A stretch of DNA of 64,000 nt, from assembly GCF_963921235.1 (NCBI RefSeq), contig NC_086108.1, positions 6,324,001 through 6,388,000 of the forward strand, in the 5' to 3' direction. Positions within the stretch are counted from its first letter, which is position 1, and every line of letters begins with the position of its first letter. Made by a program: the position numbers and the translations under genes. Below the pieces are notes generated by a model, which was not told the origin of the DNA, searched no databases, and was given only the letters and a program-made list of their open reading frames with translations. The stretch is from Mobula hypostoma (taxonomy: Eukaryota). Positions 24,101 to 63,100 of the stretch are shown piece by piece.

Positions 24101-27100
24101 GTGGCGAGATAAAATTCAAATTCACTATAATTCACCACCCTCTGGCTAAAGAAATTTTTCATCATTTTCCTTCTAAATATGTACGTCTTTACCAAAGTAA
24201 AGTGCTCCTTCCCTCCGCTAGCCTGCAGGTCACCCTGGGGCAAGGTGCAGCACCTGCTTAGCCCCCCACCTCGGATCAGGGTCACGTGAAGCCATGGGAG
24301 CAGGTGGTGGATGGTTGTATGAGCAGCCGGTGCAGATCACAAGTCCTGGTTATGCGACCACTGTCGCCAGGCAGACAATCTTTGAAGAGTATGTCACTGC
24401 CCAGAAGAAGGCAATGGCAAACCACTGCTGTGGAAAAATTTGCCAAAAACTATCATGGTCGTGGAAAGACCGTGATCGCCCACGTCATATGTCTTGGCAC
24501 ATAATGATGATGTCACACGATATGGCACAGAATGAATGAATGTCTTGGCCTCCATTGCCACCGGAGGCAATGCATTCCACAAATTCACCAGCCTCTGGCT
24601 AAAGAAATTCTTCCTCATCTTCATTCTAAACAGACGTCCCTCTATTCTGAGGCTGTGTCATAGAAACATAGAAAATAGGTGCAGGAGTAGGCCATTCGGC
24701 CCTTCGAGCCTGCACCGCCATTTATTATGATCATGGCTGATCATCCAACTCAGAACCCCGCACCAGCCTTCCCTCCATACCCCCTGACCCCCATAGCCAC
24801 AAGGGCCATATCTAACTCCCTCTTAAATATAGCCAATGAACTGGCCTCAACTGTTTCCTGCCGCAGAGAGTTCCACAGATTCACCACTCTCTGTGTGAAG
24901 AAGTTTTTCCTCATCTTCATCCTAAAAGGCTTCCCCTTTATCCTCAAACTGTGATCCCTCGTTCTGGACTTCCCCAACATCGGGAACAATCTTCCTGCAT
25001 CTAGCCTGTCCAATCCCTTTAGGATTTTATACGTTTCAATCAGATCCCCCTTCAATCTTCTAAATTCCAATGAGTACAAGCCCAGTTCATCCAGTCTTTC
25101 TTCATATGAAAGTCCTGCCATCCCAGGAATCAATCTGGTGAACCTTCTTTGTACTCCCTCTATGGCAAGGATGTCTTTCCTCAGATTAGGGGACCAAAAC
25201 TGCACCCAATACTCCAGGTGTGGTCTCACCAAGGCCTTGTACAACTGCAGTAGTACCTCCCTGCTCCTGTACTCGAATCCTCTTGCTATAAATGCCAGCA
25301 TACCATCTGCCTTTTTCACCGCCTGCTGTACCTGCATACCCACTTTCAAGGACTGGTGTATAATGACACCCAGGTCTCGTTGCACCTCCCCTTTTCCTAA
25401 TCGGCCACCATTCAGATAATAATCTGTTTTCCTATTTTCGCCACCAAAGTGGATAACTTCACATTTATCCACATTAAATTGCATCTGCCATGAATTTGCC
25501 CACTCACCCAACCCATCCAAGTCACCCTGCATCCTCTTAGCATCCTCCTCACAGCTAACACTACCGCCCAGCTTCGTGTCATCCGCAAACTTGGAGCTGC
25601 TGCATTTAATTCCCTCATCCAAGTCATTAATATATATTGTAAACAACTGGGGTCCCAGCACTGAGCCTTGTGGTACCCCACTAGTCACTGCCTGCCATTC
25701 TGAAAAGGTCCCATTTATTCCCACTCTTTGCTTCCTGTCTGCTAACCAATTCTCTATCCACATCAATACCTTACCCCCAATACCGTGTGCTTTAAGTTTG
25801 CACACTAATCTCCTGTGTGGGACCACTAATCTCCTGTGTGTGTCCTCTCCCCCACCAACAGAAACATCCTCTCCACATCCACTCTATCTAGGCTTTTCAA
25901 CATTCAATATGTTTCAATGAGATCCCCCCACCCATTCCTCTGAATTTGAGTGAGAAGAGGCCCGGAGCCATCAAACGCTCCTCATATGACAAGCCTTTCA
26001 ATCCAGGAATTATTTTTGTGAACCTCCTTAGAACCTACTCCAATGTCTTAACTTCTCACTGCTTCAGTAAAGTAACCAGCATAATGAAAGACCCCACCCT
26101 AACCCAGACATTCTCTCTCCTACTCTCGCCCATCAGGCAGAGTATTTAAAAGCCAGAAAGCACACACCACCAGGCACAAAGACAGCTCCAATCAAGCTGT
26201 TACAAGACTTCAGTGAAGCCCTAGTACGAAAAGATGGACTCTTGATCATACAATCTACCTGGTTATGACCTTGCACCTTGTCGTCTGCCTGCACTGCACT
26301 TTCTCTGTAATCATAACTCTATTCTGCAGACTGTTATTGTTTTTCTTTGTACAACCTCAATGCACTGTTGTGATGAAATGATCTGTATGAATGTGCAAAA
26401 CAAAAATTTTCACTGCATCTCGGTACATATGCCAATGATTAACCAATTTACCAATTTTGAATTGTTGCACTGAAGTCCAAAGTTCAATGTAAATTTATTA
26501 TCAGAGTGCATATATGTCACCATATACAACCCTAAGATTCATTTTCTTGCTGCATAATCTACAACAGGATCAATGAAAGATCAACCAGAGTGCAGAAGAC
26601 AACAAACTGTGCAAATGTAAATATAAATAAACACCAATTAATAACAAGAACATGAGATATTGAGATAAAGAGTCCTTAAAGTGAGATCAGTAGTTGTGGG
26701 AACATTCCAATGATGGGGTAAGAGAGTGAAGTTATCCCATTTTGTTCAGGAGCCTGATGGTTGAGGGGTAGGAACTGTTCTTGAACCTGGTGGTGTGAGT
26801 CTTGAGGCTCCTCTACCTTCTACTTGATGACAGCAGCGAGAAGAGAGCATGGCCCTGATGATGGATGCTGCTTTCCTACGACAGCGTTTCCTATAAACTT
26901 GCTCATTGGTTGGGAGGGCTTTACCTGTGATGTACTGGACTGAATCCTACCTTTTGTAGGATTTTCTATGAATACAGCAAGTTTAAAGTGAGCGGGGCCT
27001 GGGTCTACTTACATTTCTGACCATAACCCTAACCCCAGCCACACACCTGTCCCCAATTCTGTACATACACCCCGACTGCACTGGGACTTCTGGCTCACAT

Positions 27101-30100: not shown

Positions 30101-33100
30101 TCTCTTTTTTTTTCCTTTTCAGGGTGTGGAGAGGTTCTTTTGAAGACCCTGACCTTGAGTTACACTCTGACTTTGGTTCTGTGCAGGAAAGGGACCCGCT
30201 CTCAGGGCCTCACAACCGGCCACTTTTTGATGTCCTAAGGACGCGGCCTGGAAGATGAGTATGCTTTCAGAGTTCCAGGATTTCATGGCTCTGGGGACAT
30301 GTTGATTCTCGGCCAGTGCCCCTGACTGAAGCGTCACAGGAGAACACGGAACATCAGGAGCAGCGGGTTAGCTGCCAGGGGTTTTGTGTCCAGAGAGCTG
30401 TGCCTTTTTGGTGCCGACTCTCTGGGCTCAGAGCTCAGAAAAAGTGACACAACAAATGTTTAACATTGTAAATCAGCCAGTTGTTTGTTGTGTCTCCCCT
30501 CTCGCTGTGAAATGGGAACACCTGTTTTTCCCTTACCAAGGAGAGAGAGAGAGCCTGTGGTATGTTGAAATATCAGGTGAATGTGCAGTTTTTAGGGTAC
30601 TGCAAGTCTGTGTCTTTATTGTTGCTATGATGTACGCTTGAGTGCTCGGTGGAGGGAGCTGATTTTTTTTTGCTAGTGGAGGTGAGGGGTTGTTGCTTTG
30701 CTGCTGCTTGTGCATGGGAGGGGGAGCTGGGGGGGACTTTGTGGTTCTAATGTTTTAACTGTCATTCATTCTACATGGATGTTTGCGAAGAAAAAGAATT
30801 TCAGGATGTATATTGCATACATTTATCAGACATGAAATATGCCTATTGAAACGTGAGGTGTTGCACCTCGGCAGGGCAAATGCAAGGAGACAGTACACTC
30901 TTAAGGGCAAGGTCCTTAACAGTGTTGCTAAGAAGAGAGATCTTGGAATCCAAGTTCATAGCTCCTTGAAAGTGGCTACACATGTCGATGAGGTGGTTAA
31001 GAAGGCTTATGGAATGCTTACTTTTATTAGTCAAGGCATTGAGTTCAAAAGTTAAGAGGTTATGTTGCAACTTTATAAAACTCTGGTGAGCCACAACTGG
31101 AATACTGCATGCAATTCTGATCGCCTCACTATAGGAAGCATGTTGGAGATCATGCAGAAAAGATTTCTGGTTTAGAGGGTATGTCATCAATATGTTGGGT
31201 CCAGGATAGATCCTCAGATATATTGACACCTAGGTCTATATCGGTTGTTTGTCAGTGAGTGCTTTCATAAATTCTATTGTGTTTCCTTATTCTCCTGTAA
31301 ACGCCTGTAAGAAAATGAATCTCGGGGTAGTATATGGTGACATATATGTACTTTAATAAAATTTACATTGTCTTATTCAATGCAGCTACAAAGAAAACAA
31401 TACATTAGGACTTTGACGAGATTTGGTATGTCACCAAAGACTCTTCCAACTTCCTGCAGACGTACTATGGAGGACATTCTAACTGGCTGCATCACTGTCC
31501 GGTATGGGTTGTCAGGGGGAGGGTGGAGGTTCTGCACAGGATTGAAATAAGCTGCAGAGAGTTGTAAACTCAGTCAGCTCCAATGTGGGAATTAGCCTCT
31601 GTAATACCCAGGACATCTTAAAGGTGTCTCAAAAAGCTGGCATCCATTATTAAAGACCCCCATCACCCAGGACATGCCTTGTTCTCATTGCTACCATCAG
31701 GTAGGAGGTACAGGAGCCTGAAGACACACACTCAATGATTCAGGAACAGCTTCTTCCCCTCTGTCATCAGATTTCCGAATAGAGACTGAATCCAAGAATA
31801 CTATCTCACCACTTTAATTTCTTTTTTTGCACTACTTATTTAATCTAACTATTTAACCGGAATCAGAATCAGCTTTATTATCACCAGCATGTGACATGAA
31901 ATTTGTTAACTTAGCAGCAGCAGCTCAATGCAATACTTAATATAGAAGAGAAAAAAAAATAAAATAAATACATAACTTACAGTATACATATATTGAATAG
32001 GTTAAAAAAGTGCAAAAAAACCCAGAAATAATGTATATTTTAAATAAGTGAGGTAGTGTCCAAGGGTTCAATGTCCATTTAGGAATCGGATGGCAGAGGG
32101 GAAGAAGCTGTTCCTGAATCGCTGAGTGTGTGCCTTCAGGCTTCTGTACCTCCTACCTGATGGTAACAGTGAGAAAAGGGCATGTCCTGGGTGCTGGAGG
32201 TCGTTAATAATGGATGCTGCCTTTCTGAGACACCGCTCCCTAAAGACATCCTGGGTGCTTTGTAGGCTAGTACCCAAGATGGAACTGACTAGATTTACAA
32301 CCTTCTGCAGCTTCTTTCAGTCCTGTGCAGTAGCCCCTCCATACCAGACAGTGATGCAGCCTGTCAGAATGCTCTCCACAGTACATCTATTGAAGTTTTT
32401 GAGTGTATTTGTTGACATGCCAAATCTCATCAAACTCCTAATGAAGTATAGCCACTGTCTTGCCTTCTTTATGACTACATCAATATGTTGGGACCAGGTT
32501 AGATCCTCAGAGATCTTGACACCCAGGAACTTGAAGCTCCTCACTGTCTCCACTTCTGATCCCTCTATGAGGATTGGTATGCGTTCCTTCGTCTTACCCT
32601 TCCTGAAGTCCACAATCAGCTCTTTCGTCTTACCGATGTTGAGTGCCAGGTTGTTGCTGCGACACCACTCCACCAGTTGGCATACCTCTCTCCTGTACAC
32701 CCTCTCTTCACTACCTGAGATTCTACCAACAATGCTTGTATTATCAGCAAATTTGTAGATGGTATTCGAGCTATGCCTAGCCACACAGTCATGTGTATAT
32801 AGAGTAGAGCAGTGGGCTAAGCACACACCCCTGAGGTGCACCAGTGATGTCAGCGAGGAGGATATGTTATCACCAATCCACACAGATTGTGGTCTTCCAG
32901 TTAGGAAGTTGAGGATCAAATTGCAGAGGGAGGTACAGAGGCCCAGGTTCTGCAACTTCTCAATCAGGATTGTGGGAATGATGGTATTAAATGCTGAGCT
33001 ATAGTCAACGAACAGCATTCTGACACAGGTGTTTGTGTTGTCCAGGTGGTCTAAAACCATGAGGGGAGCCATTGAGATTGCATCTGCCATTGACCTATTA

Positions 33101-36100
33101 TGGTGATAGGAAAATTGCAATGGGTCCAGGACCTTGTTGAGGCGGGAGTTCATTCTAGTCATGACCAACCTCTCAAAGCATTTCATCACTGTCGATGTGA
33201 GTGCTACCAGGCGATAGTCATTAGGACAGCCTACAATATTCTTCTTAGGCACTGGTATAATTGTTGCTTTTTTGAAGCAAGTGGGAACTTCCGCCCAAAG
33301 CAGTGAGAGGTTGAAAATGTTCTTGAATACTCCCGCTCGTTGGTTGGCACAGGTTTTCAGATATATACCTAATGTAAATTCACACCTTTTTTCTATATTA
33401 TTATGTATTACATTGAACTGCTGGGGTAAGGTCAACAAATTTCACAACATATGCTGATGATATTAAACCTGATTCTGATTCTTCAATGCAGCCAAACATC
33501 AAGCCCTTAAAAACTGGAATTCTCTTTATAAACCTCCCCCCCCCATCCCCGCTCTCTCCCTTTGTAAGTTGCTCCTTAAGGCTTACCCACTTTACCAATA
33601 AGTTGGTCAACAGTTCTTGGTTCGCTATGGGTCTTGATGTCATGACCTTTGATGTCACTACTGCAAAGCACCTTGGGACATTTTACCATATTAAGGTTGC
33701 TACAAAGGTTTAGATGCTACAAATAAAGAGGCTGCCTTGTGCTATTTCAGTTGCCACACTACAAGAAGAAAGTAGATGCACAGCAGAGAATCACCAGGAT
33801 ATTGCCTGGAATAGAGAATACTTGTAAAGAGAGGTTGGAAAAACTTGGGCAACACGCACAAAATGCTGGAGGAACTCAGTAGGTCAGGCAGCATCTACGG
33901 AGGGGAATGAACAGTTTTTCTTTAAGACAACCATGACCTCTTTGTTCCTTCTCTCTTTTCCTCTGCTTCTTAGCTCTTGTAATACTTAATAAATGGCCAT
34001 GAGCAGCAGGTTTATGCCTCTTTCTTGACTTCTAAGAAGAAGTGGCCAAGTGGTTAAGGCATTGGACTAGCAATCTGAAGGTTGTGAGTTCGAGCCCCAG
34101 CCGAGGCAGCATGTTGTGTCCTTGAGCAAGGCACTTAATCACACAGTACTCTGCAACAACACCGGTGCCAAGCTGTATGGGTCCTAATGCCCTTCCCTTG
34201 GACTACATTGGTGTCGTGGAGAGGGGAGACTTGCAGCATGGGCAACTGCTGGTCCTCCATACAACCTTGCCCAGGCCTACGCCCTAGAGAGTGAAGACTT
34301 TCCAGGCACAGATCCATGGTCTCGCAAGACTAACGGATGCCTTAAAAAGAAGAAGTGGAGAGGGTCAGTAACTTTCAATTCCTCCATGTTATCATTTCAG
34401 AGGAGCTGTCCTGGGCCCAGCACGCAAGTGCAATTATGAAGAAAGCAAAGGGGTTTGCTGGGATTTGACATGACACCTAAAATTGGTGATATATGTGTAT
34501 TTTGATTTTAAAATTTTCTTTGAACTTTTTCCAGATTATTAACCACTTGGATCCATAAAACCACAAGATATAGGAGCAGAATTAGGACACCTGGCTCATC
34601 AAGTCTGCTCCACCATTTGATCATGGCTGATCCATTTTCCTCTCAACCCATTCTCCTGCCTTCACCTCGTAACCTTTCGCACCATGGCTAATCTGACTGA
34701 AGAAATTTCTCCTCATCTCTGCTCTAAATGGACATCTTCGATTTTGAGGCTGTGCCCTCTGGCCCTAGAGGGCAAATTCCTCCTCATCTCCACTCTAAAT
34801 GGACATCCTTCTGTTTTGAGGCTGTGCCCTCTGGTCCTAGAGGGCAAATTCCTCCTCATCTCCACTCTAAATGGAAAACCCTCCATTTTGAGGCTGTGAC
34901 CTCTGATCGTAGAGGGCACAGCCTCAGCAAGGCCCCGGTTCTTAACAAAGAAAATTGCACTGTAGATTTTATTGCCCACTCATATCCTTTCTGCCAATCC
35001 CTGTACCCTGAAAGACAGGGGGGTGAACCCCTAGGAACCCCTCCGCCTTTCAAAGTGGTTCGTTTTCCATAGAACAAGGGCTCCAAAAAAAAAAACCGTC
35101 CCAATAGTGAACAACTAGAACACAGGAACTCACAAACACCACACCCCAGCTTCACACACCTGGTGCAAAGTCCGTTTTGCCATAATACCGAATAATTCCC
35201 GGCTTCTGCCCGGCCACCAGGACCTGGTCTCCAATCTTGATCTTCGTGCCCTCAGGGTCCAGGCTGCCCACCGACAGGGACTTTCTTCTCAAGGCTGTGG
35301 AGAGGTACAGGTATGGAGGAACAGGTACCAAGGTGAAATGGTTAGTAATCAAAGAGAGATCTCTGGCACAGTGAGTGTAATGCTTTATAGCATCAGCTGT
35401 ACGATCGGGGTTCAATTGCAACTGCTGTCTGTAAGGGAGTTTGTACATTCTCCCCATGGCTGCATGGGTTTCCCCCCAGTGCTTCGGTTTACAACCACAG
35501 TCCAAAGGCATACCAGTTAGGGGTTAGTAAGTTGAAGCCATGCTATGCTTGCACCAGAAATGTGGTGACACTTGCAGGCTGATTTGATTGGATGAAAATT
35601 ACACATTTCACTGTATGCTTTTATCATACAGCTGTCAGGCTCTTCAACCAAAGGGGATAACTTCACTCAAACTTTGCTTGCCTCGTCACTGAAATGTTCC
35701 CACAACCAAGGAACTCCCTTTCAAGGACTCTCCAGCTCATGTTCTCGATATTTATGGCTTATTTGTTTATTATTATTATTTCTTCCTGTTTATATTTGCA
35801 CAGTTTGTTGTTGTCTGCTCTCTGGCTAAATGCCCAAGTTGGGTGGACTTTCATTGATTCTGTTATAGTTATTATTCTACAGGTTTGTTGAGATTGCCCA
35901 CAAGAAAATGACTCTCAGGAATGGATATGGTGACAGATATGTTCTTTAATAATAAATTTACTTTGAACTTTGAGATAAACCTAATCTTTATAAAATTCAG
36001 TGTGCGGCCCCACTTTAAATAACAGGCCTCCTCCACTCCCCTCCTCCATCCCAACCCCTCAATACACATCCATCATTTGGGTATGGGTGCTTTCTTAGCC

Positions 36101-48100: not shown

Positions 48101-51100
48101 AGATTGTAAGATTGGAACAGCGAGCTGTTCTCCCCTCTCACTGTTGCAGGAGCGATCTCTCTCTCTCTGTCCCTCGACAGTGATAGAGAGAGCTTGTCTG
48201 AGATGTCAAAGTGTTGGGATGGACAGTGGCGTTTGATGGACTCTAGATCATGGTCTCCAGAGGGCTTGCTGTTGCTTGATGGTGGGTGGAAGGGGGCTGA
48301 CCCTTTTGCTGGGCAAATGGGGGAAGGAGGAGGGGGTGTCGATGCTTTAACTGCAGCTTATGTATGGGAGAAGGAGAGTGGGCTTTGGGGTTCTGATGGT
48401 TCTGTCATTCACTCATTGGGATTTTTTTCCTGTTTCGTGGCTGCCCTGTGTAGAGTAAGAATTTCAGGTTGTATACAGTATACGCTCTCTGATATTAAAT
48501 TGAACCATTTGAATCTTTGACAAGTTTCAAGTTGGGGTGTTGGGAGCAGGGAAAGCACGAACAACGTACACGCTACTGGCAGAGCTCAGCAGGTCAGGCA
48601 GCATCAATGGAGGGAAATGGGCAGCTGACGTTTCCAGTTGAGGCCCTTTACTTGGACTGAAACTTCGAGGCGAGATGGCTGGTGCAGAGGTGGAGGAAAT
48701 GAGCGGAGTAAAAGCCAGCAGGTGATGGGTGGATCCAGGTGAGGAATGGTGAGAGGCAGATGGAGGAGGAGAGAGTGGGAACAGTGACAGAGGCTGGGAG
48801 GTGATGGGTGGATCCAGGGGTGGAGGGGCGAATAGTAGATGGGAGGGTGGGAACAGTGACAGAGGCTGGGAGGTGATGAGTGGATCCAGGGGTGGAGGGG
48901 CGAATAGTAGATGGGAGGGTGGGAACAGTGACAGAGGCTGGGAGGTGATGAGTGGATCCAGGTGAGGTGACTTGTGTTAATATTATTCTGTGTCTGTATG
49001 CACTGGATCGTAACTATATGTGCTGTGTGTGACTGTATGGGCTGTGTTTTACACCTTGACCCCGTAGTATGGAAGGTCTAGTTATTAGCCGATGGAAAAT
49101 TGTTCTGAAAGTGGCTTCCATGGTGCCAGTTAATGATGGGCCTGCTCAAGGTATGTAGCTGCCTTCCTATTGGTTAACTCCTGTGCCCTGAGGCACCCGT
49201 TTCTGCTCCTAAGCCATGTGCTGTGATACCTGTGGCTGCCTTTTGGTCCTCAGGTGTATAAAGGTGAGGGAGTGAGTCTCTCTCTGTTTTGGGACCCTGA
49301 GCTGCAGGTAGCACTGGCGAAACCATTTGGACGGTGTACTGCAGTTCCAAAGTGGTGTTAAGGTAGTGGCTGGATCCAAAGCAGTCTAAGAGCAAGGAAT
49401 GACACGCTGTTCAGCTGATTTAAGTGCCGGGCCAGGTTAAAAAGGTCAGGGTGCCGGGACTGGAGGCAAGAGCCGGGCTAATCCGCGACGTTTGCTCTGC
49501 TCTATGCTGGACTACAGTGACACCTGGCTTTGTGTCCATGGTCTCACGTCACTTACTCGGCTTTGGAATGGACGATGGCTGGTGTCTGTGCCAGCTGCAG
49601 CAACATCTGGCTTTGTGTCTTTCATAAAAACCAGTTCCGAAGCTACTTGATTACTTTTGATGTTTACATGTTTTTTTTACTCTTTCTCTCTGTGCATTGG
49701 GTCTTTTTTTTTGTTGGGTTCTTTTGAGGTTTCTTTGTTTTGTGGCTGCCTGTGAAGAGACGAATCTCAAAGCTGTATGATGTATATACGTGCTTTGATA
49801 ATAAATGTACTTTGAACTTTGAGTTAATAGGGGAGGAACTCATGTTTCAGGTAAATACCTCGTTAAGTAGTTGTTTATTGCTTGTTTGATGTTGTGTAAC
49901 TTGGACAGATTTAGCAAGTGCATGGAATGCGAGCAGTTTCTATAGTTTGAGTGACTTGGATGAGTGCTTGTTCGACTTACAGGCGTGTAAAGTGTTTCAT
50001 TGCTTGCTTGTGAATAAACAGTTGCTCACAATCAGCGTCTGCTGTTTCACTTACCAAACCCGCAAACCTGCTTTTGCACAACACCACCTCGGGAACGACG
50101 TTTCATTCAGTTCTATGCATGCGTATGGTTGAATGAAAATAAACTTGAAAGGCAGGGGTGACACCCTGCCACTTTTCCCTGCGATTATCTGCCCCATTTG
50201 GGAGCGAACACACAGACTCCGAAATCTGACCACTTTCACCACCTACCGACGCCGTGCGCTCCGGCCTTGCAGGCGTAGTGTAGCAGGGTCATGTCCGTCA
50301 GCCCATCACGGTCGTTGACGTGGCAACCTCGCTTGAGAATCTGTATTGGCAACAAAGATAAATCAGCAGGAGGCATTCTCAGTAATCGGGGGGTGGGGGG
50401 AATCTCATTCATCCCATGCTAAAGCAGGTCAGACGAGCATATTAACAAAAGGCAGAGGTTAACCTGGGTAAAAATGGACCACTGGATATTTGAACACCAG
50501 GTCTCAAATCCTGGATGCTCCCAGGACTTACAGACATGAGCTAAAGGGGGAGGCTGGGCAATCTTGGACTTTAGTCCTTGGAGCATGGGAGATGTATAAA
50601 GTCATGAGGTCCCTCATGATAGACCCAAATTCCCTTATTTTATCGCCTGTATGTCAAAACATCCCGTGCAGCACTCACAAAAAGCTGGAGCAATGCAAAG
50701 GAAAGAGATTTGGTGTTTCTGGCCGAGTCTCTTCATCAGGACAGGAAAGGAAGGCGGAAAAGGCCTGAATGGGAGGCAGAGGAGGAGTACAAACTGGAAG
50801 GTGATATAGAAAGAATAGGCTGAACGTGAAGCCAGGTAAAGGGGAATATTCAGTACTGTGCAAAGGTCTTAGCCATATACATATAGCTAGGGCAACTAAG
50901 ACTTCCGCACAGCACTGTAGTAATTTTATGTTTTGGACTGTACAACTGACTCAAAACCATAACAAATTTCATGACGTATGTGAGCGATGATAAACCTGAT
51001 TCTGATCTGGGTCTCTATTGTGGACTGAGAGTGGGAAGGGGACAGGGAGAGGAGAATCACGGTTGGGAAAAGGGGAAGGGAGAGGGGAGGGTGTGGGAAG

Positions 51101-54100: not shown

Positions 54101-57100
54101 TTCTGAATTATAGTGAACACAGACCCAGAGCCATCAAACATTCTTCACATGACAAGCCATTCAAAGAACATCCCTTGAACCCTCTCCAGTTTCAGCACAT
54201 CCTTTCTAAGGGGCCCAAAACTGCTGACAATACTGCAAGTGAGGCCTCACCAGTGCTTTATAAAGTCTCAACATTACACCTTTGCTTTCATATTTCAGTC
54301 CTCTTGAAATGAACGCTAACACTGCATTTGCCTTCCTCACCACAGACTCGACCTGCAAATTAACCTTTAGGGAATCCTGCACAAGGACTTCCAAGTCCCT
54401 TTGCACCCCAGGTTTTTGTATTTTCTCTCCATTTAGAAAATAGTCAACTCTTTCATTAATTCTACCAAAGTGCATGACCATACACCTCCCGACACCATAT
54501 TCCATCTGCCACTTCTTTGCCCATTTTCCAAATCCGTCTAAGTGCTTCCATAGCCTCTCTACTTCCTCAAAACTACCTGCCCCTCCACCTATCTTCATAT
54601 AGTCTGCAAACTTTGCAACAAAGCCATCAATTCCATCATCCAAATCATTGACATGTAAAGAGAGTCTATCACAACACCGACCCCTGTGGAACACCACTAG
54701 TCACTGATACATGTCACCAAATACTACCCTGAGATGCATTTCCTTGCAGGCATTCACAGTCGAACACAGAAATCCAATAGAGTTAATGAAAAACTACACG
54801 CAGACTGAAAAACAATCAGTGAGCAAAAAGAAGACAAACTGTGCAAATAAGTAAATAAAATAAATAATACTGAGAACATAAGTTGTTGAGCCCTTGAAAG
54901 TGAGTCTGTAAGTTGTGGAATCATTTCAGAGTTGAGGTGATTGGAGTTATCCACACTGGTTCAGGAGCCTGATGGCTGTGGGGTAATAACTGTTCCTGAA
55001 CCTGGTGGTGTGGGACCTGAGGCTCATTGTGGGAGGTGAAGTTATCCACACTGGTTCAGGAGCCTGATGGTTGTGGGGTGATAACTGTTCCTGAACCTGG
55101 TGGTGTGGGACCTGAGGCTCATTGTGGTGAGTGAAGTTATCCACACTGGTTCAGGAGCCTGATGGTTGTGGGTTAATAACTGTTCCTGAACCTGGTGGTG
55201 TGGGACCTGAGGCTCATTGTGGTGAGTGAAGTTATCCACACTGGTTCAGGAGCCTGATGGTTGAGGGGTAATAACTGTTCCTGAACCTGGTGGTGTGGGA
55301 CCTGAGGCTCATTGTGGTGAGTGAAGTTATCCACACTGGTTCAAGAGCCTGATGGTTGTGGGGTAATAACTGTTCCTGAACCTGGTGGTGTGGGACCTGA
55401 GGCTCATTGTGGTCAGTGAAGTTATCCACACTGGTTCAGGAGCCTGATGGTTGTGGGGTAATAACTGTTCCTGAACCTGGTGGTGTGGGACCTGAGGCTC
55501 ATTGTGCTGAGTGAAGTTATCCACACTGGTTCAGGAGCCTGATGGCTGTGGGGTAATAACTGTTCCTGAACCTGGTGGTGTGGGACCTGAGGCTCATTGT
55601 GGTGAGTGAAGCTATCCACACTGGTTCAGGAGTCTGATGGTTGAGGGGTAATAACTGTTCCTGAACCTGGTGGTGTGGGACCTGAGACTTCTATGTCCCC
55701 TGCCCAATGGCAGCAGCGGGAAAAGAGCTTGGCCTGGATGGTGGGGTCCTGACAACGGATGCTGCTTCCTTGCAGCAGCACCACAAACTGGATGACGCAA
55801 TACACAAGTTCTGCCGGCCTCCCTATCCAACACTTCATCACACCTGACTGTACTCCTGAAGGTCAGATGACCCTGTTCAGACTGAGCTTGGGTCTGTTTA
55901 AAAGCAGCAATCGATCACTAATACACAGCTGGACTGGGGTTAACTGAGTCATGCACACGGTGTATCAGGAGATATATGGCTCTGAAGAATCAATGCTCCC
56001 TTGGGCTTTCAACCACCAATATTCATCACTGCCCCAGTAATGCTTCATAAATAACCTCATATTTCTCCCTTTGCATTGCTACACAGGTTTAGTTATCGAT
56101 GCCTTTTTCAGAGAGAAAAGAGAGGCTCACATACAAAATGTGTGGCACGTGGCCAAGTGGTTAGGGTGTTAGACTAGTGATCTGAAGGTTGTGGGTTCGA
56201 GCCTCGGCCGGGGCAGCGTGTGTGTCCTTGAGCAAGGCACTTAACCACACAATGCTCCAGTCTACCCAGCTGAGAATGGGTGGCAGCAAAAATGCTGGGG
56301 GTTAACCTCGTGATAGACTAGCGTCCTATCTGAGGGGGAGTCTCGTACTCTCAGTCGCTTCGTGCCACGGAAATCGGCATAAGCACGAGCCTGGTGGGCC
56401 ACAAGGCTCGTGACAGACTTTAATTAACACACAAAATGCTGGAGGAATACAGCAGGTCAGGAAGCATCTGTAGAGAAGAATAAACAGTCAATGTTTCCGG
56501 CCGTGAAGGGTCTCGGCCCAAAACCCACCTTCTCACTCTGGCATCATCACCCTTCCTTTCCAGCCTGATGAAGGGTCTTGGCCCGAAATGTCAACTGTTT
56601 ATTCATTCCTATATATTCTGCCTGACCTGCTGAGTTCCTCTGTGTTGCTCTGGATTTCCAGCATCTGCAGAATCTCTTGTGTTTGAGATTTATGGCCAAA
56701 TACTGAATTAACTTTATCACTAAATTTGTCCCACACACAGCACCGCCATTCCCAGAGAGAGATATATGAAAAGGCTGTTGCCCTGTCAAACGACAGTCAC
56801 TTCATCCTCCCCAGTTTCCTGAATCATGATTAGAGGTTCTCTGTCTTTACAGCTCTCCCCACCATTGAGCACATCTACAGTTTGTACATTGAGCACTGCC
56901 ACAAGAAAGCAGCATCCATCATCAAGGACCTCACCATCCTGGCCATGAGCTCTTCTCACTGCTACCCTTGGTCAAGTGGTACAGGAGCTTTAGGTCGCAC
57001 ACCACCAGGTTTAGGAATGGTTACCTAACAACCATCAGGCTCCTGAACCAGTGTGGATAATTTCATTGACCACAATGAGCCTCAGGTCCCACCACCAGGT

Positions 57101-60100
57101 TCAGGAACAGTTATTACCCCACAACCATCAGGCTCCTGAACCAGTGTGGATAACTTCACTCACCACAATGAGTGTCAGGTCCCACACCACCAGGTTCAGG
57201 AACAGTTATTACCCCACAACCATCAGGCTCCTGAACCAGTGTGGATAACTTCACTCACCACAATGAGCCTCAGGTCCCACATCACCAGGTTCAGGAACAG
57301 TTATTACCCCACAACCATCAGACTCCTGAACCAGTGTGGATAACTTCACTCACCACAATGAGCCTCAGGTCCCACACCACCAGGTTCAGGAACAGTTATT
57401 ACCCCACAACCATCAGGCTCCTGAACCAGTGTGGATAACTTCACTCCCCACAATGAGCCTCAGGTCCCACACCACCAGGTTCAGGAACAGTTATTACCCC
57501 ACAACCATCAGGCTCCTGAACCAGTGTGGATAACTTCACTCACCACAATGAGCCTCAGGTCCCACACCACCAGGTTCAGGAACAGTTATTACCCCTCAAC
57601 CATCAGGCTCCTGAACCAGTGTGGATAACTTCACTCACCACAATGAGCCTCAGGTCCCACACCACCAGGTTCAGGAACAGTTATTACCCCACAACCATCA
57701 GGCTCCTGAACCAGTGTGGATAACTTCACTCAGCACAATGAGCCTCAGGTCCCACACCACCAGGTTCAGGAACAGTTATTACCCCACAACCATCAGGCTC
57801 CTGAACCAGTGTGGATAACTTCACTCAGCACAATGAGCCTCAGGTCCCACACCACCAGGTTCAGGAACAGTTATTACCCCACAACCATCAGGCTCCTGAA
57901 CCAGTGTGGATAACTTCACTCCCCACAATGAGCCTCAGGTCCCACACCAGCAGGTTCAGGAACAGTTATTACCCCACAACCATCAGGCTCCTGAACCAGT
58001 GTGGATAACTCCACTCACCTCAACTCTGAACTGATTCCACAATGTACAGACTCACTTTCAATAACTCTACAACTCATGTTCTCAGTATTACTATTTTTAT
58101 TTGCACATCGGTTATTTGTCAGTCTTTATGTGTATATTTATTTATTTATTTGTGTTTTTAGATGCAGTGCGGAATAGGCCCTTGTGGCCTTTGAGCCACG
58201 CCGCCCAGCAACCCTCGATTTAATCCCAGCCTAGTCACGGGGCAATTTACGATGACCAATTAACCTACCAACCAATACTGAGTACAGCTGACAATAATAA
58301 AAGTAATCATCAATCTTTTATTTTAAAATTCTGCCGTCTTGAAATTTAACTCTTTTTTTGTTCACAGAATCAGGGAGCACTACAGTACAGAAACAGGCCC
58401 TTCAGCCCATCTAGTCTGTGTCAAACTATAATTCTGCCTACTCCCATCAGCCCGCACCTGGACGACAGCCATCCGTACACTTCATTCATGTACCTATCCA
58501 AACTTCTCTTAAATGTTGGAATCGATCCTGCGTCCACCACGTCTGCTGGCAGCTCGTTCCACACTCTCAGCTTCATCTGAGTGAAGGGCTCCCCTTCAAT
58601 ATTTCACCTTTCACCCTTAACCCATGACCTCCAGTTCTAGTCTCACTCAGGGGAAAAGCCTGCTTGCATTTACCCTATCTCTACCCTTCATAATTTTATA
58701 TCATCATCACCATCATCGTTGTGTCATATGACGTGGATGATCATAGGCTTTCCACGACCATGATTGTTCTTTGCTCATACGGCCATCCACCACCTGCTCC
58801 CATGGCTTCACGTGACCCTGATTGGGGGTGAGGGGCTAAGCAGGTGCTACACCTTGCCCAAGGGTGACCTGCAGGCTAGCGGAGGGAAGGAGCACCTTAC
58901 ACCTCCTTTGGTAGAGATGTAGCTCCACCCCACCACCCAATTTGTATACCTCTATCAAATCTCCCCTTCTTCTCCTACACTCCAAGGAATAAAGTCCAAA
59001 TTTATTCCGCCTCTCCCTGTAACTGAGGTCCTCAAGTCCCGGCAACATCCTTGTCAATCTTTCTGCAATCTAATTGATTTTGTTAGTTTGAGGGGTGTGG
59101 CTGTGATAACATATTTGCTGCCTGTCCCCTACTGAATCTGCCATCTGCCTGCTTTTGTTTGTTTATTTATTTATTTATTGAGATACAGCACAGAATAGAA
59201 CCTTCCAGCAATCCCGATTTAATCTACAGTGGCCTTATCTTAGGGCAGTTTACAATGACGAATTAACCTGCCAACCGGTACGTCTTTGGACTTTGGGAGG
59301 AAACCGGAGCACCCGGAGGGAAACCCACGTGGTGACGGGGAGAACGTACGAACTCCTTACAGGCAGCGACGGGAATTGAACCCGAGCCGCCGGCACTGTA
59401 GAGTACTGTGCTCACCACTACGCCACCGTGCCAACCCTGCACTGCTGTAGTCCGTGTGGTGTACACCCCTCATGGAGCATGATTCGGATTAACGAGTTCG
59501 AGCACCGACTCACTTCGTTTCCGATGGTGTCAATTTTGTGTTGCACTTGGGGAACCCACTGCCGGATGATTGCAAAGAGCTCAGGGATGGTCGTCTGCGG
59601 GTTGAAGAGGATTTCCTGACAGGCCGGGTCATTCGGATCAAAGAAGGTGAAGGCTGTTCAGAACGGGGAGAATAACATTTCAATCAAACACTGGAGATGC
59701 AGGTGAAAGCGTCTCATCTCAGAGGAGAGGAGGGTGGGTGGGGAGGGGGAGCGTGTGGAGGGGCAAGGAGGATGAGGGGCGCAGAGGCGAGGGGCAGGGT
59801 GACCACGTGGGTCGGGGTAAAGGAGACGGTGAGGGGAGAAGGGAAGATATTGGAGGAAGGGTGAGGGCAGACATGGGATGAAAGGGGTGTGAGGGATAGT
59901 GGCTGGGAGGTGGGGGGGTGAAAGAGAGGGATGCAAAGAAGGGTGGAGGAGAGGGGAGGAGGTGGGGGAGGGTGGGAGGCAGGAGATAAGGAAGGTATGA
60001 AAAGAGGAAGAGTGAGGGAGGAAGTGATGGATGGAGGGAAGGCAGGTGGGGAGGGAAGACAGGAGGTGAGGGAGGGAATGGGGCATGAGATGAGGGAGGG

Positions 60101-60409
60101 TGGTAGGCAAGAGGCAAAGGAGAGGGAGGGACGGAGGGGGAGGAGGTGACAGAGGGAGAGGCTTTGAGGAAAGAGGCGAGAGGGGAAGGACGGGAGGAGG
60201 CAAAGGGAGGGAGGGGAATGAGGAAGTGTGGACGGGGCTCAGATGATTGAAGAGCTACCATAGTCCTTGGGCAGTGGTGCTGGGGCCGAGGGGTGAACCA
60301 TGGGCTTCTTGCGTCTCTCCATCACCGGGCTGTGGAAATCTGTGGGCTGCTCTTGGGGCTCAAGGGGCTCCTCCTCGGAAGCCACATCTGCCACGTTCTC
60401 CTTCGTCAT
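14817..60409 (-). CDS. CLIP3: CAP-Gly domain-containing linker protein 3 (CLIP3/CLIPR-59), 13 coding exons, 539 aa. Join: 60409-60259, 59653-59514, 50340-50247, 46493-46332, 45521-45403, 41765-41529, 39975-39840, 39063-38935, 35294-35160, 29729-29606, 22828-22764, 20194-20122, 14871-14817
   Basis: The spliced translation matches remembered vertebrate CLIP3 from end to end ([28 protein letters not shown], ankyrin repeats, GKNDG and GKHDG CAP-Gly motifs, C-terminus [18 protein letters not shown]). All introns are GT-AG, phases agree, total is 1620 nt. Confidence 0.97.
15120..15157. repeat. (CA)n microsatellite
   Basis: About 18 CA units. Confidence 0.95.
15164..15690 (-). mobile_element. Internally deleted Tc1/mariner element
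   Basis: TIRs CAGTGGCCACTTTATTAGGTACAG and CTGTACCTAATGGAGTGGCCACTG; transposase HTH remnant [33 protein letters not shown]. Confidence 0.85.
19848..20100. mobile_element. Palindromic Penelope-derived element (two inverted termini, each with a hammerhead-like core)
   Basis: Inverted arms of about 100 bp at 19893-19994 and 20000-20100. Confidence 0.8.
19946..19983 (-). ncRNA. Minimal type I hammerhead ribozyme motif (Penelope type)
   Basis: Minus strand reads gtc CTGACGA A GGGTCTTGGCCC GAAAC GTC aactg: intact core, stem II, palindromic ACGT mini stem III; helix I imperfect. Confidence 0.6.
20122..20194 (-). CDS. CLIP3: CLIP3 coding exon 12 ([25 protein letters not shown])
   Basis: 73 nt, acceptor ctgtag, donor GTAACA. 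Confidence 0.94.
20408..20645. mobile_element. Probable solo LTR
   Basis: TGTT...AACA ends with a short imperfect inverted repeat, flanked by a 5-bp direct repeat CCCAG (20403-20407 and 20646-20650). Confidence 0.7.
20795..21510 (+). mobile_element. Degenerate CR1 LINE 3' fragment
   Basis: Reads [24 protein letters not shown]...RRLRGDL, then CR1 3'UTR. Confidence 0.85.
22190..22600 (+). mobile_element. About 400-bp non-autonomous RTE-like element; further copies at 36410-36810 and 44385-44785
   Basis: Three copies share CTTGTCGT(A/G)GG...GGGTCACCCATG...AAACAGGTCAA heads and AGATGGAGGA...GGGCAGTAA tails; RTE assignment is from memory. Confidence 0.6.
22764..22828 (-). CDS. CLIP3: CLIP3 coding exon 11 ([21 protein letters not shown])
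   Basis: 65 nt, acceptor tttttcag, donor GTACGT; resembles remembered human IGG...KKVHQVT. Confidence 0.92.
23225..23720 (+). mobile_element. CR1 LINE 3' end
   Basis: Reads [16 protein letters not shown]...RTRGHSL; (TATGGTCT)n tail. Confidence 0.85.
24190..24530 (+). mobile_element. Short interspersed repeat of about 340 bp; copies at 28620-28800 plus 29374-29500 (-), 38280-38570 (+) and 58700-58935 (-)
   Basis: Shared CCGCTAGCCTGCAGGTCACCC...GGGTCACGTGAAGCCATGGGAG core and (ATG)n tail. Confidence 0.7.
24659..25840 (-). mobile_element. Young 5'-truncated CR1 LINE, same subfamily as 6237-7527, inserted into an older CR1 fragment
   Basis: 358-aa RT ORF 24750-25826 nearly identical to ORF 6389-7459; (TTTCTATG)n tail. 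Confidence 0.95.
27578..27860 (+). mobile_element. tRNA-derived HE1/Mermaid-like SINE; other copies near 12970-13135, 16015-16260, 35365-35620, 39435-39745 and 59150-59435 (-)
   Basis: A/B-box-like head (GTGGTTAGC...GGTTCAATTCC) followed by the core GGAGTTTGTACGTTCTCCCCGTG...GGGTGCTCCGGTTTCCTCCC. Confidence 0.75.
28210..28615 (+). mobile_element. Tc1-like element fragment (same family as 15164-15690)
   Basis: TIR-like CACTCATTGGTCACTTTATTGGTACA and remnant MGKKCDLS...ARWGGLSI. Confidence 0.7.
28801..29373 (-). mobile_element. CR1 LINE 3' end inserted into a short interspersed repeat
   Basis: Reads [21 protein letters not shown]; (TTTCTATG)n tail; the host repeat resumes on both sides. Confidence 0.88.
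29606..29729 (-). CDS. CLIP3: CLIP3 coding exon 10, CAP-Gly 2 ([42 protein letters not shown])
   Basis: 124 nt, GKHDG motif, acceptor cctcag, donor GTAACC. Confidence 0.96.
30035..30850 (+). mobile_element. About 800-bp non-coding interspersed element; related copies at 18875-19715 (+), 16430-17070 (-) and 48090-48520 (+)
   Basis: AAGATGGCG start, shared CTCCCCTCTCGCTGTG and GGAGAGAGAGAG internal blocks, AAGAATTTCAGG...TATA tail. Confidence 0.55.
31860..33360 (-). mobile_element. Rex1/Babar-type LINE, 5'-truncated
   Basis: RT motifs [31 protein letters not shown] and KFADN; C-terminus [15 protein letters not shown]; (GATTCT)n tail. Confidence 0.9.
34041..34345 (+). mobile_element. tRNA-derived SINE with target-site duplication; related head at 56143-56425
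   Basis: A box TGGCCAAGTGG and B box GAGTTCGAGCC; direct repeat AAGAAGAAGTGG on both sides. Confidence 0.8.
34690..34905. repeat. Tandem repeat of about 71-72 bp, about 3 copies, derived from CR1 3' sequence
   Basis: AGGCTGTG.CCTCTG recurs at 34748, 34819 and 34891. Confidence 0.8.
35160..35294 (-). CDS. CLIP3: CLIP3 coding exon 9 ([45 protein letters not shown])
   Basis: 135 nt, acceptor ccacag, donor GTGTGT. Confidence 0.93.
38935..39063 (-). CDS. CLIP3: CLIP3 coding exon 8 ([43 protein letters not shown])
   Basis: 129 nt, acceptor cctcag, donor GTAATT. Confidence 0.94.
39840..39975 (-). CDS. CLIP3: CLIP3 coding exon 7, CAP-Gly 1 ([45 protein letters not shown])
   Basis: 136 nt, GKNDG motif, acceptor ttgcag, donor GTAAGG. 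Confidence 0.96.
40050..40572 (+). mobile_element. CR1 LINE 3' end
   Basis: Reads [11 protein letters not shown]1 3'UTR and (TATGGTCT)n tail. Confidence 0.85.
41529..41765 (-). CDS. CLIP3: CLIP3 coding exon 6 ([31 protein letters not shown]...[11 protein letters not shown])
   Basis: 237 nt, acceptor caacag, donor GTAAGG. Confidence 0.95.
42030..42690. repeat. Purine-rich (G/A) low-complexity tract
   Basis: About 660 bp that are almost only G and A on the + strand. Confidence 0.9.
42700..43525 (-). mobile_element. Degenerate CR1 endonuclease-region fragment
   Basis: Reads [18 protein letters not shown] and [12 protein letters not shown]. Confidence 0.75.
44988..45180. mobile_element. hAT-like MITE
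   Basis: Imperfect TIRs of about 60 bp beginning (T/C)AGGGGTGGCCAACCTTT; no clear TSD. Confidence 0.75.
45403..45521 (-). CDS. CLIP3: CLIP3 coding exon 5 ([40 protein letters not shown])
   Basis: 119 nt, acceptor ttgcag, donor GTAAGC. Confidence 0.95.
46332..46493 (-). CDS. CLIP3: CLIP3 coding exon 4 ([54 protein letters not shown])
   Basis: 162 nt, acceptor gtgcag, donor GTAGGT. Confidence 0.95.
48765..48965. repeat. 72-bp minisatellite, about 2.7 copies, inside a Penelope-derived element
   Basis: ACAGTGACAGAGGCTGGGAGG at 48781, 48853 and 48925. Confidence 0.85.
50247..50340 (-). CDS. CLIP3: CLIP3 coding exon 3 ([31 protein letters not shown]), ankyrin repeat
   Basis: 94 nt, acceptor atacag, donor GTAGGT. 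Confidence 0.95.
53715..54705 (-). mobile_element. Degenerate CR1 LINE 3' part
   Basis: [16 protein letters not shown] and [10 protein letters not shown] motifs plus CR1 3'UTR. Confidence 0.85.
54945..55687 (-). repeat. 95-bp tandem array 1 (about 7.8 units), derived from a Rex/Babar LINE 3' end
   Basis: Exact 95-nt periodicity, also seen in the ORF track; unit reads [25 protein letters not shown]. Confidence 0.97.
56990..58018 (+). repeat. 95-bp tandem array 2 (about 10.5 units), inverted relative to arrays 1 and 3
   Basis: Same unit with 95-nt periodicity from 57051 to 58001. Confidence 0.97.
59514..59653 (-). CDS. CLIP3: CLIP3 coding exon 2 ([47 protein letters not shown])
   Basis: 140 nt, acceptor gaacag, donor GTGAGT. 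Confidence 0.95.
59720..60235. repeat. Purine-rich (G/A) low-complexity tract filling most of a 605-bp intron
   Basis: Mostly G and A on the + strand, with many G runs. Confidence 0.9.
60259..60409 (-). CDS. CLIP3: CLIP3 coding exon 1 (MTKENVADV...[12 protein letters not shown]); the exon starts at 60422 with 13 nt of 5'UTR
   Basis: ATG at 60409-60407, acceptor ttctgcag upstream of 60422, donor GTAGCT, phase 1. Confidence 0.93.
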
Positions 60410-60809
60410 GTTTGAAGGTGGCCTGCAGAACACAGAGAGACGGCGACATTAGAACCAACAGCCACGGGTATAAAGAGGATCAGAAACGTGCTGAGGATAA
60501 AAACCACACAGGGAACTACTCTCTGTCGCTTTAACAGCAAGCACTGGAAAAGGAACGTTCAAAACCTATTCCTCAAAGTACAAAGTACATATATGTCACC
60601 ATATACAACCCTGACATCTGTTTTCTTGCAAACATTCACGGTAGAACAAAGAAATACAACAAATCAATGAAAACCTGCACAGAAACAAATCACCATTGGG
60701 CAACAGAGGGCAAACTATGTAAATAGAACAATTAAATATTACTGAGAACACGAGTTGTAGAGTCCCTGAAAATGAATCTGCAGGCTGTAGAATCAGTTCA
60801 GAGTTGCGG

Positions 60810-61555
60810 TGAGTGAAATTATCCACACTGGTTCAGGAGCCTGATGGTTGTGGGGTAATAACTGTTCCTGAGCCTGGTGGTGTGGGACCTGAGGCTCATT
60901 GTGGTGAGTGAAGTTATCCACACTGGTTCAGGAGCCTGATGGTTGTGGGGTAATAACTGTTCCTGAGCCTGGTGGTGTGGGACCTGAGGCTCATTGTGGT
61001 GAGTGAAGTTATCCACACTGGTTCAGGAGCCTGATGGTTGTGGGGTAATAACTGTTCCTGAGCCTGGTGGTGTGGGACCTGAGGCTCATTGTGGTGAGTG
61101 AAGTTATCCACACTGGTTCAGGAGCCTGATGGTTGTGGGGTAATATCTGTTCGTGAACCTGGTGGTGTGGGACCTGAGGCTCATTGTGGTGAGTGAAGTT
61201 ATCCACACTGGTTCAGGAGCCTGATGGTTGTGGGGTAATAACTGTTCCTGAGCCTGGTGGTGTGGGACCTGAGGCTCATTGTGGTGAGTGAAGTTATCCA
61301 CACTGGTTCAGGAGCCTGATGGTTGTGGGGTAATAACTGTTCCTGAACCTGGTGGTGTGGGACCTGAGGCTCATTGTGGTGAGTGAAGTTATCCACACTG
61401 GTTCAGGAGCCTGATGGTTGTAGGGTAATAACTGTTCCTGAACCTGGTGGTGTGGGACCTGAGGCTCATCGTGGTGAGTGAAGTTATCCACACTGGTTCA
61501 GGAGCCTGATGGTTGTGGGGTAATAACTTCCTGAACCTGGTGATGTGGGACCTGA
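60810..61555 (-). repeat. 95-bp tandem array 3 (about 7.7 units)
   Basis: Same unit with 95-nt periodicity from 60819 to 61484. Confidence 0.97.
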
Positions 61556-62559
61556 CACTCTGATACCTCCTGTAGAATGGTAGTAGTGAGTAGGGAGCAT
61601 GATCTGGATGGCGGGGGTGGAGGGTCCTTGATGCTGGAAGCTGCTTTCCTGCAATAGCGCTCCATGCAGATATGCTCACTGGTGGGAAGGAATTTTCTGT
61701 GAAGAACTGGGCTGTATCCACTTCTTTTTGTAAGCCTTTTAGAACTGGTGCAGGAGCAGGCCATTCCACTCATCAAGCCTGCAGTCAGAACAATAACACA
61801 AGTGTTGTATGCCAGCTCGATTTCAAAGTTTAAGAGAAGCTTGGATAGGTGCATGAATGGTAGGGGTATAGAGGGTTATGGTCCCGGTGTAGATTGATGG
61901 GCGTAGGCAGTTTAAATGATTCGGCATGGACTAGATGGGCCAAAGGGCTTAGATAGGAACATAAAAACATAAGAAATAGGATCAGGAGTCGGCCATCCAG
62001 CCCGTCGAGCCTGCTCCACCATTCAATAAAATCATGGCTGATCTGGCCATGAACTCACCTCCACCTACCTGCCTTTTCCCCATAACCCTTAATTCCCCTA
62101 CTATGCAGAAATCTATCCAACCTTGTCTTAAATATATTTACTGAGGTAGCCTCCACTGCTTCATTGAGCAGAGAATTTCACAGATTCACCACTCTTTGGG
62201 AAAAGCAGTTTCTCATCATCCCCGTCCTAAATCTACTCCCCCGAACCTTGAGGCTATGTCCCCTAGTTCTAGTGGAAACAACTTTCCTGCCTCTTCCTTA
62301 TCCATCCCTTTCAAAACTTTACATGTTTCTATAAGATCCCCTCTCATTCTTCTGAATTGTACTTTTTGATGTTGTATTTTTCTATGACTCTATTTCTGAC
62401 TTCTCATCTTAATTCCCCTTTAAAATACTATAAAAATAAAATCATGGCTGATCTGGCCATGAACTCACCTCCACCTACCTGCCTTTTCCCCATAACCCTT
62501 AATTCCCCTACTATGCAGAAATCTATCCAACCTTGTCTTAAATATATTTACTGAGGTAC

Positions 62560-63100
62560 CCAACACACATCAAAGTTGCTGGTGAATGCAGCAGGCCAGG
62601 CAGCATCAGGTACAGTCCACATGTCGGGCCGAGACCCTTCGTCAGGACGAACTGAAGGAAGAGTTAGTAAGAGATTTGAAAGTGGGAGGGGGAGGGGGAG
62701 ATCCAAAATGATAGGAGAAGACAGGAGGGGGAGGGATGGAGCCAAGAGCTGGACAGGTGATTGGCAAAAGGGGATACGAGAGGATCATGGGACAGGAGGT
62801 CTAGGGAGAAGGAAAAGGGGGAGGGGGGAAATCCAGAGGATGGACAAGGGGTATAGTCAGAGGGACAAAAAGGAGAGAGAGAAAAAGAATGTGTGTATAT
62901 AAATAAATAACAGATGGGGTACGAGGGGGAGGTGGGGCATTAGTGGAAGTTAGAGAAGTCGATGTTCATGCCATCAGGTTGGAGGCTACCCAGACGGAAT
63001 ATAAGGTGTTGTTCCTCCAACCTGAGTGTGGCTTCAATCTTTACAGTAGAGGAGGCCGTGGATAGACATGTCAGAATGGGAATGGATGTGGAATTAAAAT
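62560..63100 (-). mobile_element. Penelope-like element 3' end: GIY-YIG C-terminus plus terminal repeat with hammerhead-like motif
   Basis: Minus strand reads FNSTSHSHSDMSIHGLLYCKD and ATLRLEEQHLIFRLGSLQPDGMNIDFSNFH*, followed by GTCCTGACGAAGGGTCTCGGCCCGACATGTGGACTG. Confidence 0.85.

What the first reader, a model, noticed from the sequence alone, without database searches (positions are those of the whole stretch)
54945..61555. Three near-identical 95-bp arrays in alternating orientation, each inside a different LINE-tail copy: candidate concerted evolution
Seen: arrays at 54945-55687 (-), 56990-58018 (+) and 60810-61555 (-) share one 95-nt unit, including the same junction ...TTCACTCACCACAATG|AGCCTCAGGTCCCACA..., with only about 0-3 differences per unit. 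The LINE 3'-end sequences flanking each array are visibly more diverged from one another. Arrays 1 and 2 share minor variants (CACTCAGCACAATG at about 55500 and at 57728/57823; TACCCCTCAAC at about 55262/55641 and 57590). Array 3 has a private CAGGCTCAGGAAC variant in four units. Inference: a minisatellite arose in one Rex/Babar tail and spread into neighbouring homologous copies by gene conversion or template switching, i.e. a satellite at an early stage.
Basis: partly seen in the sequence, partly recalled or inferred. Interest (0 to 1): 0.72.

Follow-up and report, generated by a model that had tools for sequence, protein, structure and literature searches.

The report
LINE-derived minisatellite arrays homogenised locally
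Three short tandem arrays made from the tail of a jumping gene sit in three old neighbouring copies of that element and are kept almost identical by copying between them, a clear new example of a known process rather than a newborn satellite.

Summary
The three 95-bp arrays are real and lie in three old LINE tails in introns of CLIP3 of a cartilaginous fish. All three have the same majority unit, while their flanks differ by 22-27%. Arrays 1 and 2 share 5 minor variants in shuffled order, so sequence exchange between arrays is well supported. "Born here, early-stage satellite" is not. Contigs crossing the same junction in the same phase occur in all 4 runs laid, from 4 organisms, and three from the window's own species match none of its 24 junctions. 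The unit is also nearer the LINE family norm than the one surviving host unit. Best reading: an old, dispersed LINE-derived repeat was recombined into one old copy here, expanded, then passed to its neighbours by conversion or inversion-type crossover. How the first array arrived is inferred, and no genome was available to count loci. Arrays 2 and 3 are inverted around two exons and could pair in the pre-mRNA; untested.

The parts
54932..55686 (-). Array 1, about 8 units of 95 bp
56985..58023 (+). Array 2, 11 units including the diverged host unit
60804..61555 (-). Array 3, about 8 units, private variant C21 in 4 units
56990..57081 (+). Surviving host unit of array 2: 7 substitutions and a 3-base gap in positions 1-42, none in 43-74, 3 in 75-82
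54707..55778 (-). Host LINE tail 1 (approximate ends), end of the reading frame plus 3' untranslated part
56855..58102 (+). Host LINE tail 2 (approximate ends)
60580..61732 (-). Host LINE tail 3 (approximate ends)
55779..56854 (.). Intronic spacer between inverted hosts 1 and 2; a crossover between arrays 1 and 2 would flip it without moving an exon (inferred)
60259..60422 (-). First coding exon found of the CLIP3 gene, between arrays 2 and 3; its assignment to CLIP3 rests on position, strand and a recalled peptide likeness
   Evidence: covered by low-depth contigs in 3 of 4 runs
59514..59653 (-). Next coding exon, between arrays 2 and 3 (boundaries read from the sequence)
26574..26958 (-). 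Related LINE tail with a single unit and no junction (control)
35635..35972 (+). Second related LINE tail without junction (control)
32040..33441 (-). Related LINE with reverse transcriptase (PF00078) and PF09004; its tail matches the hosts at 72-74%

Best explanation
The unit is the last 24 codons, stop codon and about 20 further bases of a high-copy LINE. A tandem duplication of this piece arose long ago and is dispersed at low frequency in this group of fishes (shown: junction outside the window and in other organisms; inferred: single origin). Because the unit is homologous to thousands of LINE tails, a junction-bearing donor can recombine into an old single-unit copy and turn it into an array (inferred). 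This happened to one copy in CLIP3; the array grew by slippage or unequal exchange, then passed to the two neighbouring copies and has kept exchanging short tracts with them (exchange between arrays 1 and 2 shown; direction and order not shown). Arrays 1 and 2 are inverted in one intron, so either gene conversion or a crossover that flips the spacer can move units between them at no cost. Array 3 is separated by two exons, can only exchange safely by conversion, and is drifting apart.
For: Same majority unit against 22-27% flank divergence, P below 1e-9. Arrays 1 and 2 share 5 variants of 12 and 9; P 6e-6 uniform, 1e-5 with change types kept, 0.001 after dropping T42 and G82. Order of shared variants is not collinear and the longest exact run shared is 170 bases, so one array is not a plain copy of the other. 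Their last units also share C77 and T86. Arrays 1 and 2 are not differentiated (0.057, P 0.17); array 3 is (0.12, P 0.004 and 0.026). Array 2 keeps an old host unit in front of the first junction. Junction-crossing pieces without phase shift in runs X1, X5, X9, X15; X1 records 6, 7, 8 fit none of the 24 window junctions. Three-way distances 0.125, 0.154, 0.227 give, by my arithmetic, about 2.6% for the unit and 10% for the host unit from their common ancestor.
Against: With very uneven site rates the sharing is not significant (P up to 0.14), and 3 of the 5 shared variants lie at positions 82-84. Given 6 shared variants, 5 falling in one pair has P 0.077. Only 32 of about 72,800 pieces were listed. 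The 2.6% estimate is biased low because part of the host unit is already converted. The 3' flank of host 1 is only about 6% from the ancestor, so its own unit could have been near-ancestral by chance. No genome was available to count array loci, and arrays at the orthologous site of other species were not shown.
Confidence: 0.55

Rival explanations
1. Each of the three hosts was seeded separately from a dispersed pool of arrays (DNA circles or reverse-transcribed multimers recombining into LINE tails); the shared variants come from the pool.
For: Junction present elsewhere, one variant in run X5 at depth 283 against 8.76 for the exon. T42 is the state of the non-array copy at 26.7 kb. Array 2 has the host-then-donor first unit that a single crossover leaves.
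Against: Three adjacent hits need a high seeding rate, but two related copies in the window have no junction and the junction bin has 16-19% of the peak depth in the three runs computed, much of it overhang from ordinary copies (rough). G82 lies among host variants of A2_1 and recurs in A1_3.
Confidence: 0.13
2. One reading: the duplication arose in one of these three tails and spread to the other two; the junction copies elsewhere are exports from here or independent events.
For: Tight clustering and local exchange. The same LINE piece forms other tandem joints often (tables 5 and 5c), so recurrence is conceivable.
Against: Same-phase junction in four organisms and in diverged forms, up to 5 differences in 65-79 letters. 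I see no microhomology in the 95-base register that would make it recur (read). The unit does not carry host-like decay.
Confidence: 0.12
3. A LINE subfamily carries the array in its tail, and three copies simply inserted near each other.
For: Junction occurs outside the window; the three hosts share a 3' region that differs from the two control copies.
Against: Copies inserted whole should age evenly, yet flanks differ by 22-27% and majority units by 0. Variant order is not collinear. This model still needs later exchange between arrays.
Confidence: 0.1
4. Selection keeps the arrays alike because arrays 3 and 2 pair in the CLIP3 pre-mRNA around two exons, with array 1 competing, and so tune back-splicing, skipping or editing.
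For: Predicted duplexes of 740 and 739 pairs (about -1580 kcal/mol) against -406 for the same-orientation control. Reverse-complementary intron matches are thought to aid back-splicing (PMC6376117, passages).
Against: Pairing follows from any inverted near-identical pair and says nothing on function. No RNA data were examined. Selection on a duplex would not hold 700 bases at 98% identity without exchange.
Confidence: 0.05
5. The likeness or the copy numbers are an assembly or polishing artefact.
For: The best run holds only 0.69 of the sampled words; no listed piece spans an array.
Against: Each array has private variants and its own edges. Unique sequence next to array 3 is matched without difference in run X1 (363 and 74 letters), and the junction exists in independent studies. 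X1 may be the source sample.
Confidence: 0.05

Closest known systems
Rsp-like repeats seeded into 1.688 clusters on the Drosophila X (PMC7403614; listing and passages read)
   Same: A repeat appears as near-identical arrays at loci that already held a homologous, older repeat; a shared junction marks common origin; interlocus gene conversion or circle reintegration are the proposed routes.
   Different: There two unrelated satellites are joined by microhomology and spread over a chromosome. Here the repeat is a piece of the LINE it sits in, the landing sites are single retrotransposon copies, and the shown exchange spans 7 kb.
Minisatellites and satellites derived from transposable elements: Alu-, B1- and MaLR-derived minisatellites, CR1-derived chicken satellites (review PMC6947457; passages and table read)
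   Same: A short piece of a retroelement is duplicated in tandem and amplified by slippage, conversion or unequal crossing-over.
   Different: The passages seen describe origin and growth of arrays, not the same array standing in several old, diverged host copies.
Short tandem arrays inside Ogre LTR retrotransposons of Lathyrus (PMC7004042; abstract and section list only)
   Same: Arrays live inside dispersed retrotransposon copies and sometimes expand.
   Different: There the array is part of the element and travels with it; here the arrays look younger than their hosts and most family copies seem to lack the junction.

Membership tests
Transposon-derived minisatellite | Head-to-tail array of a 10-100 bp unit | tested here: met
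   period 95, 8-11 copies
Transposon-derived minisatellite | Unit homologous to a single-copy part of a transposable element | tested here: met
   single unit in copies at 26.7 and 35.6 kb; tail homology to an RT-coding LINE
Inter-array concerted evolution | Arrays more alike than their flanks | tested here: met
   0 majority differences against 22-27%
Inter-array concerted evolution | Minor variants shared between arrays beyond chance, in patchwork order | tested here: met
   arrays 1 and 2, P 6e-6 to 0.001; weak under extreme rate variation. Array 3 shares only one
Inter-array concerted evolution | Species-specific fixed variants in orthologous arrays | tested here: inconclusive
   X5 record 24 has 1 difference at high depth, but its locus is unknown
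Newborn, locus-specific satellite | Junction confined to this locus and species | tested here: not met
LINE subfamily with a built-in array | Array and flanks of equal age | tested here: not met
LINE subfamily with a built-in array | Junction in most copies of a subfamily genome-wide | not testable with these tools
   no genome held; summed depth is no copy number
Rex1/Babar LINE | Reverse transcriptase grouping with Rex1/Babar | not tested
   only PF00078 and PF09004 shown in a related copy; the label is recalled
Retrozyme-like repeat (ribozyme, circular RNA intermediate) | Self-cleaving ribozyme in the unit | tested here: not met
   no Rfam match near a gathering score, best E 0.55; fold z -1.9 as RNA

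The most novel reading that the evidence does not exclude
A homing minisatellite: a piece of a LINE that, once duplicated, uses the thousands of dead copies of its parent as landing sites, turning single copies into arrays across the genome through DNA circles or reverse-transcribed multimers, and then spreads to neighbours. At CLIP3 it has built a 740-bp near-perfect inverted pair around two exons that could switch on circular RNA or editing.
Probability: 0.15. Interest if true: 0.68.

Novelty: new member of a known kind. Interest (0 to 1): 0.38.

Why it matters
It is a compact, countable case of how a tandem repeat moves between dispersed transposon copies: 27 units, three hosts, two orientations and exons between some of them. 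It makes two things testable in ray genomes: whether arrays colonise old copies of their parent element, and whether orientation and intervening exons set the rate of exchange. If the repeat proves widespread it would be a route from LINE to satellite that needs no new insertion. Without that genome-wide count it remains a local curiosity of a known kind.

Tried and rejected
Own genome: not held. Exact-pattern scans found nothing in metagenome contigs, viral contigs or prokaryote genomes, as expected for fish DNA. Earlier findings by sequence, relatives and words gave nothing on this repeat (18 and 47 returned other features). The share of about 0.25 of words in seven further organisms (C, E-J) equals the array's share of distinct words (429 of 1690), but only C and E were laid and any high-copy repeat could give it, so it is not used. 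Run X9 had no cover of the exon, which proves nothing. Ribozyme or known RNA family: none; the unit's hairpin is not significant (z -1.35 DNA, -1.92 RNA). Target-site duplications that would show swapped flanks: best 8 bases, lying inside other repeat sequence, rejected. The two-base change at the end of A2_2 equals the 5' flank of host 3, but a CpG-creating change followed by decay gives the same letters, so it is weak. The test dropping positions 81-84 was run with 8 variants for array 1 where 7 is right; P is about 0.01 either way. A structure search of one exon was run in the wrong frame and is void; the Atlas gave no useful hit in the right frame. Paper searches listed no description of this repeat; the library lacks most subscription journals and no supplements were read.

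Full report
Observation. Tandem Repeats Finder reports three arrays of period 95 at 54932-55686, 56985-58023 and 60804-61555 with 7.9, 11.0 and 7.9 copies. The junction motif occurs 24 times in the window, only in the arrays, against 0.02 expected. I cut the arrays into 27 units. Leaving out the first unit of array 2 and the last 22 columns of the three terminal units, they differ from the majority at 33 of 2404 sites. The majority is the same in all arrays, with array 3 split 4:4 at position 21. The flanks differ at 22%, 27% and 26% of about 165 sites.

What the unit is. In one frame it reads as 24 codons and a stop, the end of a LINE reading frame plus about 20 bases. Two other copies in the window, at 26.7 and 35.6 kb, hold the same piece once, without a junction. 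A more distant copy at 32-33.4 kb codes for a reverse transcriptase (PF00078) with PF09004 and matches the hosts at 72-74%. The name Rex/Babar is recalled and was not tested; a review describes Rex1 as mostly truncated with a conserved 3' region (PMC6274825, passages), and L2/CR1/Rex is the main LINE group in batoids (10.64898/2026.10.27.761883, passages).

Setting. The host gene lies on the minus strand, has ankyrin and CAP-Gly exons, and its CAP-Gly exons match CLIPR-59 (CLIP3) best. Two coding exons, 60259-60422 and 59514-59653, lie between arrays 2 and 3. Arrays 1 and 2 are inverted in one intron, 1.3 kb apart. That the animal is a ray rests on earlier notes of the scan and was not checked.

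Exchange between arrays. Array 1 has 12 distinct substitutions, array 2 has 9 and array 3 has 6. Arrays 1 and 2 share 5, arrays 2 and 3 share 1, arrays 1 and 3 none. Five shared has P 6e-6 under a uniform null, 1e-5 with change types kept, and 0.001 when T42 and G82 are dropped. With strong site-rate variation P rises to 0.004-0.14, and three of the five lie at positions 82-84, so a mutable patch cannot be excluded. The shared variants are in different order and the longest exact run shared is 170 bases. Arrays 1 and 2 are not differentiated (P 0.17) while array 3 is (P 0.004 and 0.026). This fits repeated short exchanges, most often between the two arrays in one intron.

The junction is not private. 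No genome was held, so I laid contigs of 4 of the 23 listed runs on 60240-60935, which holds an exon, the tail of host 3, one unit and one junction at 60898. The exon has depth 20.2 in X1 (0 differences in 363 letters), 8.76 in X5 (14 in 371), 7.14 in X15 (7 in 169) and none in X9. Summed depth on the unit reaches 1.5-3.8 million, so the family is very abundant; the tool warns that this is no copy number. Of 32 listed pieces (about 72,800 more not shown), 8 cross the junction with at least 22 letters on each side: three in X1, two in X5, two in X9, one in X15, seven of them without a gap. Two meet the tool's 31-letter rule (X1 record 6, X5 record 23); the rest show only that junction-spanning words exist in the run. 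The three X1 pieces (5, 5 and 3 differences plus a gap; depth 22.9, 36.8, 93) fit none of the 24 window junctions, whose largest count is 4. X5 record 24 has one difference at depth 283. X1 may be the source sample; the others are separate studies. Where these junctions lie is unknown. The same LINE piece also shows other tandem joints, one at depth 1438 in X1 (table 5c), and the unit holds one five-base word three times, so the piece is prone to duplication.

The array looks younger than its hosts. The first unit of array 2 has 7 substitutions and a 3-base gap in positions 1-42, none in 43-74 and 3 in 75-82: an old host unit, partly overwritten, followed by the junction. Distances among the majority unit, this host unit and the 26.7-kb copy (0.125, 0.154, 0.227) give by my arithmetic 2.6%, 10% and 13% from their ancestor. 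The flanks are 12-17% (5') and 6-14% (3') from theirs. Peak depth on the unit is 42-76 times the best flank bin in the three runs computed. An array born by duplicating a host's own unit should carry that host's decay, and neutral concerted evolution does not stop drift from the ancestor (established theory). The estimate is biased low by the converted patch, and host 1 is only about 6% diverged on its 3' side, so this argument is suggestive, not conclusive.

Mechanism. Shown: three arrays, one unit, old hosts, exchange between arrays 1 and 2, junction elsewhere. Inferred: a junction-bearing donor recombined into one old copy, the array grew, and it passed to the neighbours. Between inverted arrays 1 and 2 a single crossover would split one array into two and flip only intron; conversion would do the same without a flip. 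A crossover with array 3 would invert or delete exons, which may be why it is more distinct. I give this 0.55. Rivals: separate seeding from a dispersed pool 0.13, local birth 0.12, array-bearing subfamily 0.10, selection on an RNA duplex 0.05, artefact 0.05.

Possible consequence. On the transcript, arrays 3 and 2 can form 740 pairs across the two exons and arrays 2 and 1 can form 739 within one intron; the same-orientation control is far weaker. Complementary intron matches are thought to aid back-splicing (PMC6376117, passages). No RNA was examined, so this is a prediction only. The unit is no known RNA family.

Comparison. The closest process is the seeding of Rsp-like repeats into existing 1.688 clusters by interlocus conversion or circle reintegration (PMC7403614, passages). 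Minisatellites from retroelements are well known (PMC6947457, passages; PMC7004042, abstract). Searches listed no paper on this repeat; supplements, where repeat libraries of ray genomes might list it, were not read. Verdict: real, a new member of a known kind, interest 0.38. The most novel reading not excluded is a minisatellite that homes into copies of its parent LINE genome-wide (0.15).

Noticed in passing
window 62025-62151 and 62435-62561: A 127-base stretch is repeated at 99.2% identity 410 bases apart; a recent duplication, a long target-site duplication or an assembly slip.
   Followed up: no
window 60840-60897, runs X1, X9, X15: The same LINE piece forms other tandem joints elsewhere: one of about 70 bases at depth 1438 in X1, one of about 48 bases in both X9 and X15 (table 5c).
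   Followed up: partly
window 19894-20100 and 44989-45179: Self-inverted stretches of about 200 bases, 92.8% and 71.3%.
   Followed up: no
window 34703-34918 and 48771-48962: Two unrelated 72-base tandem repeats of about 3 copies; the first lies in LINE sequence, another small LINE-derived duplication.
   Followed up: no
window 24750-25883 and 6389-7483: Two CR1-like reverse transcriptase frames with near-identical peptides, about 18 kb apart; probably a young family.
   Followed up: no
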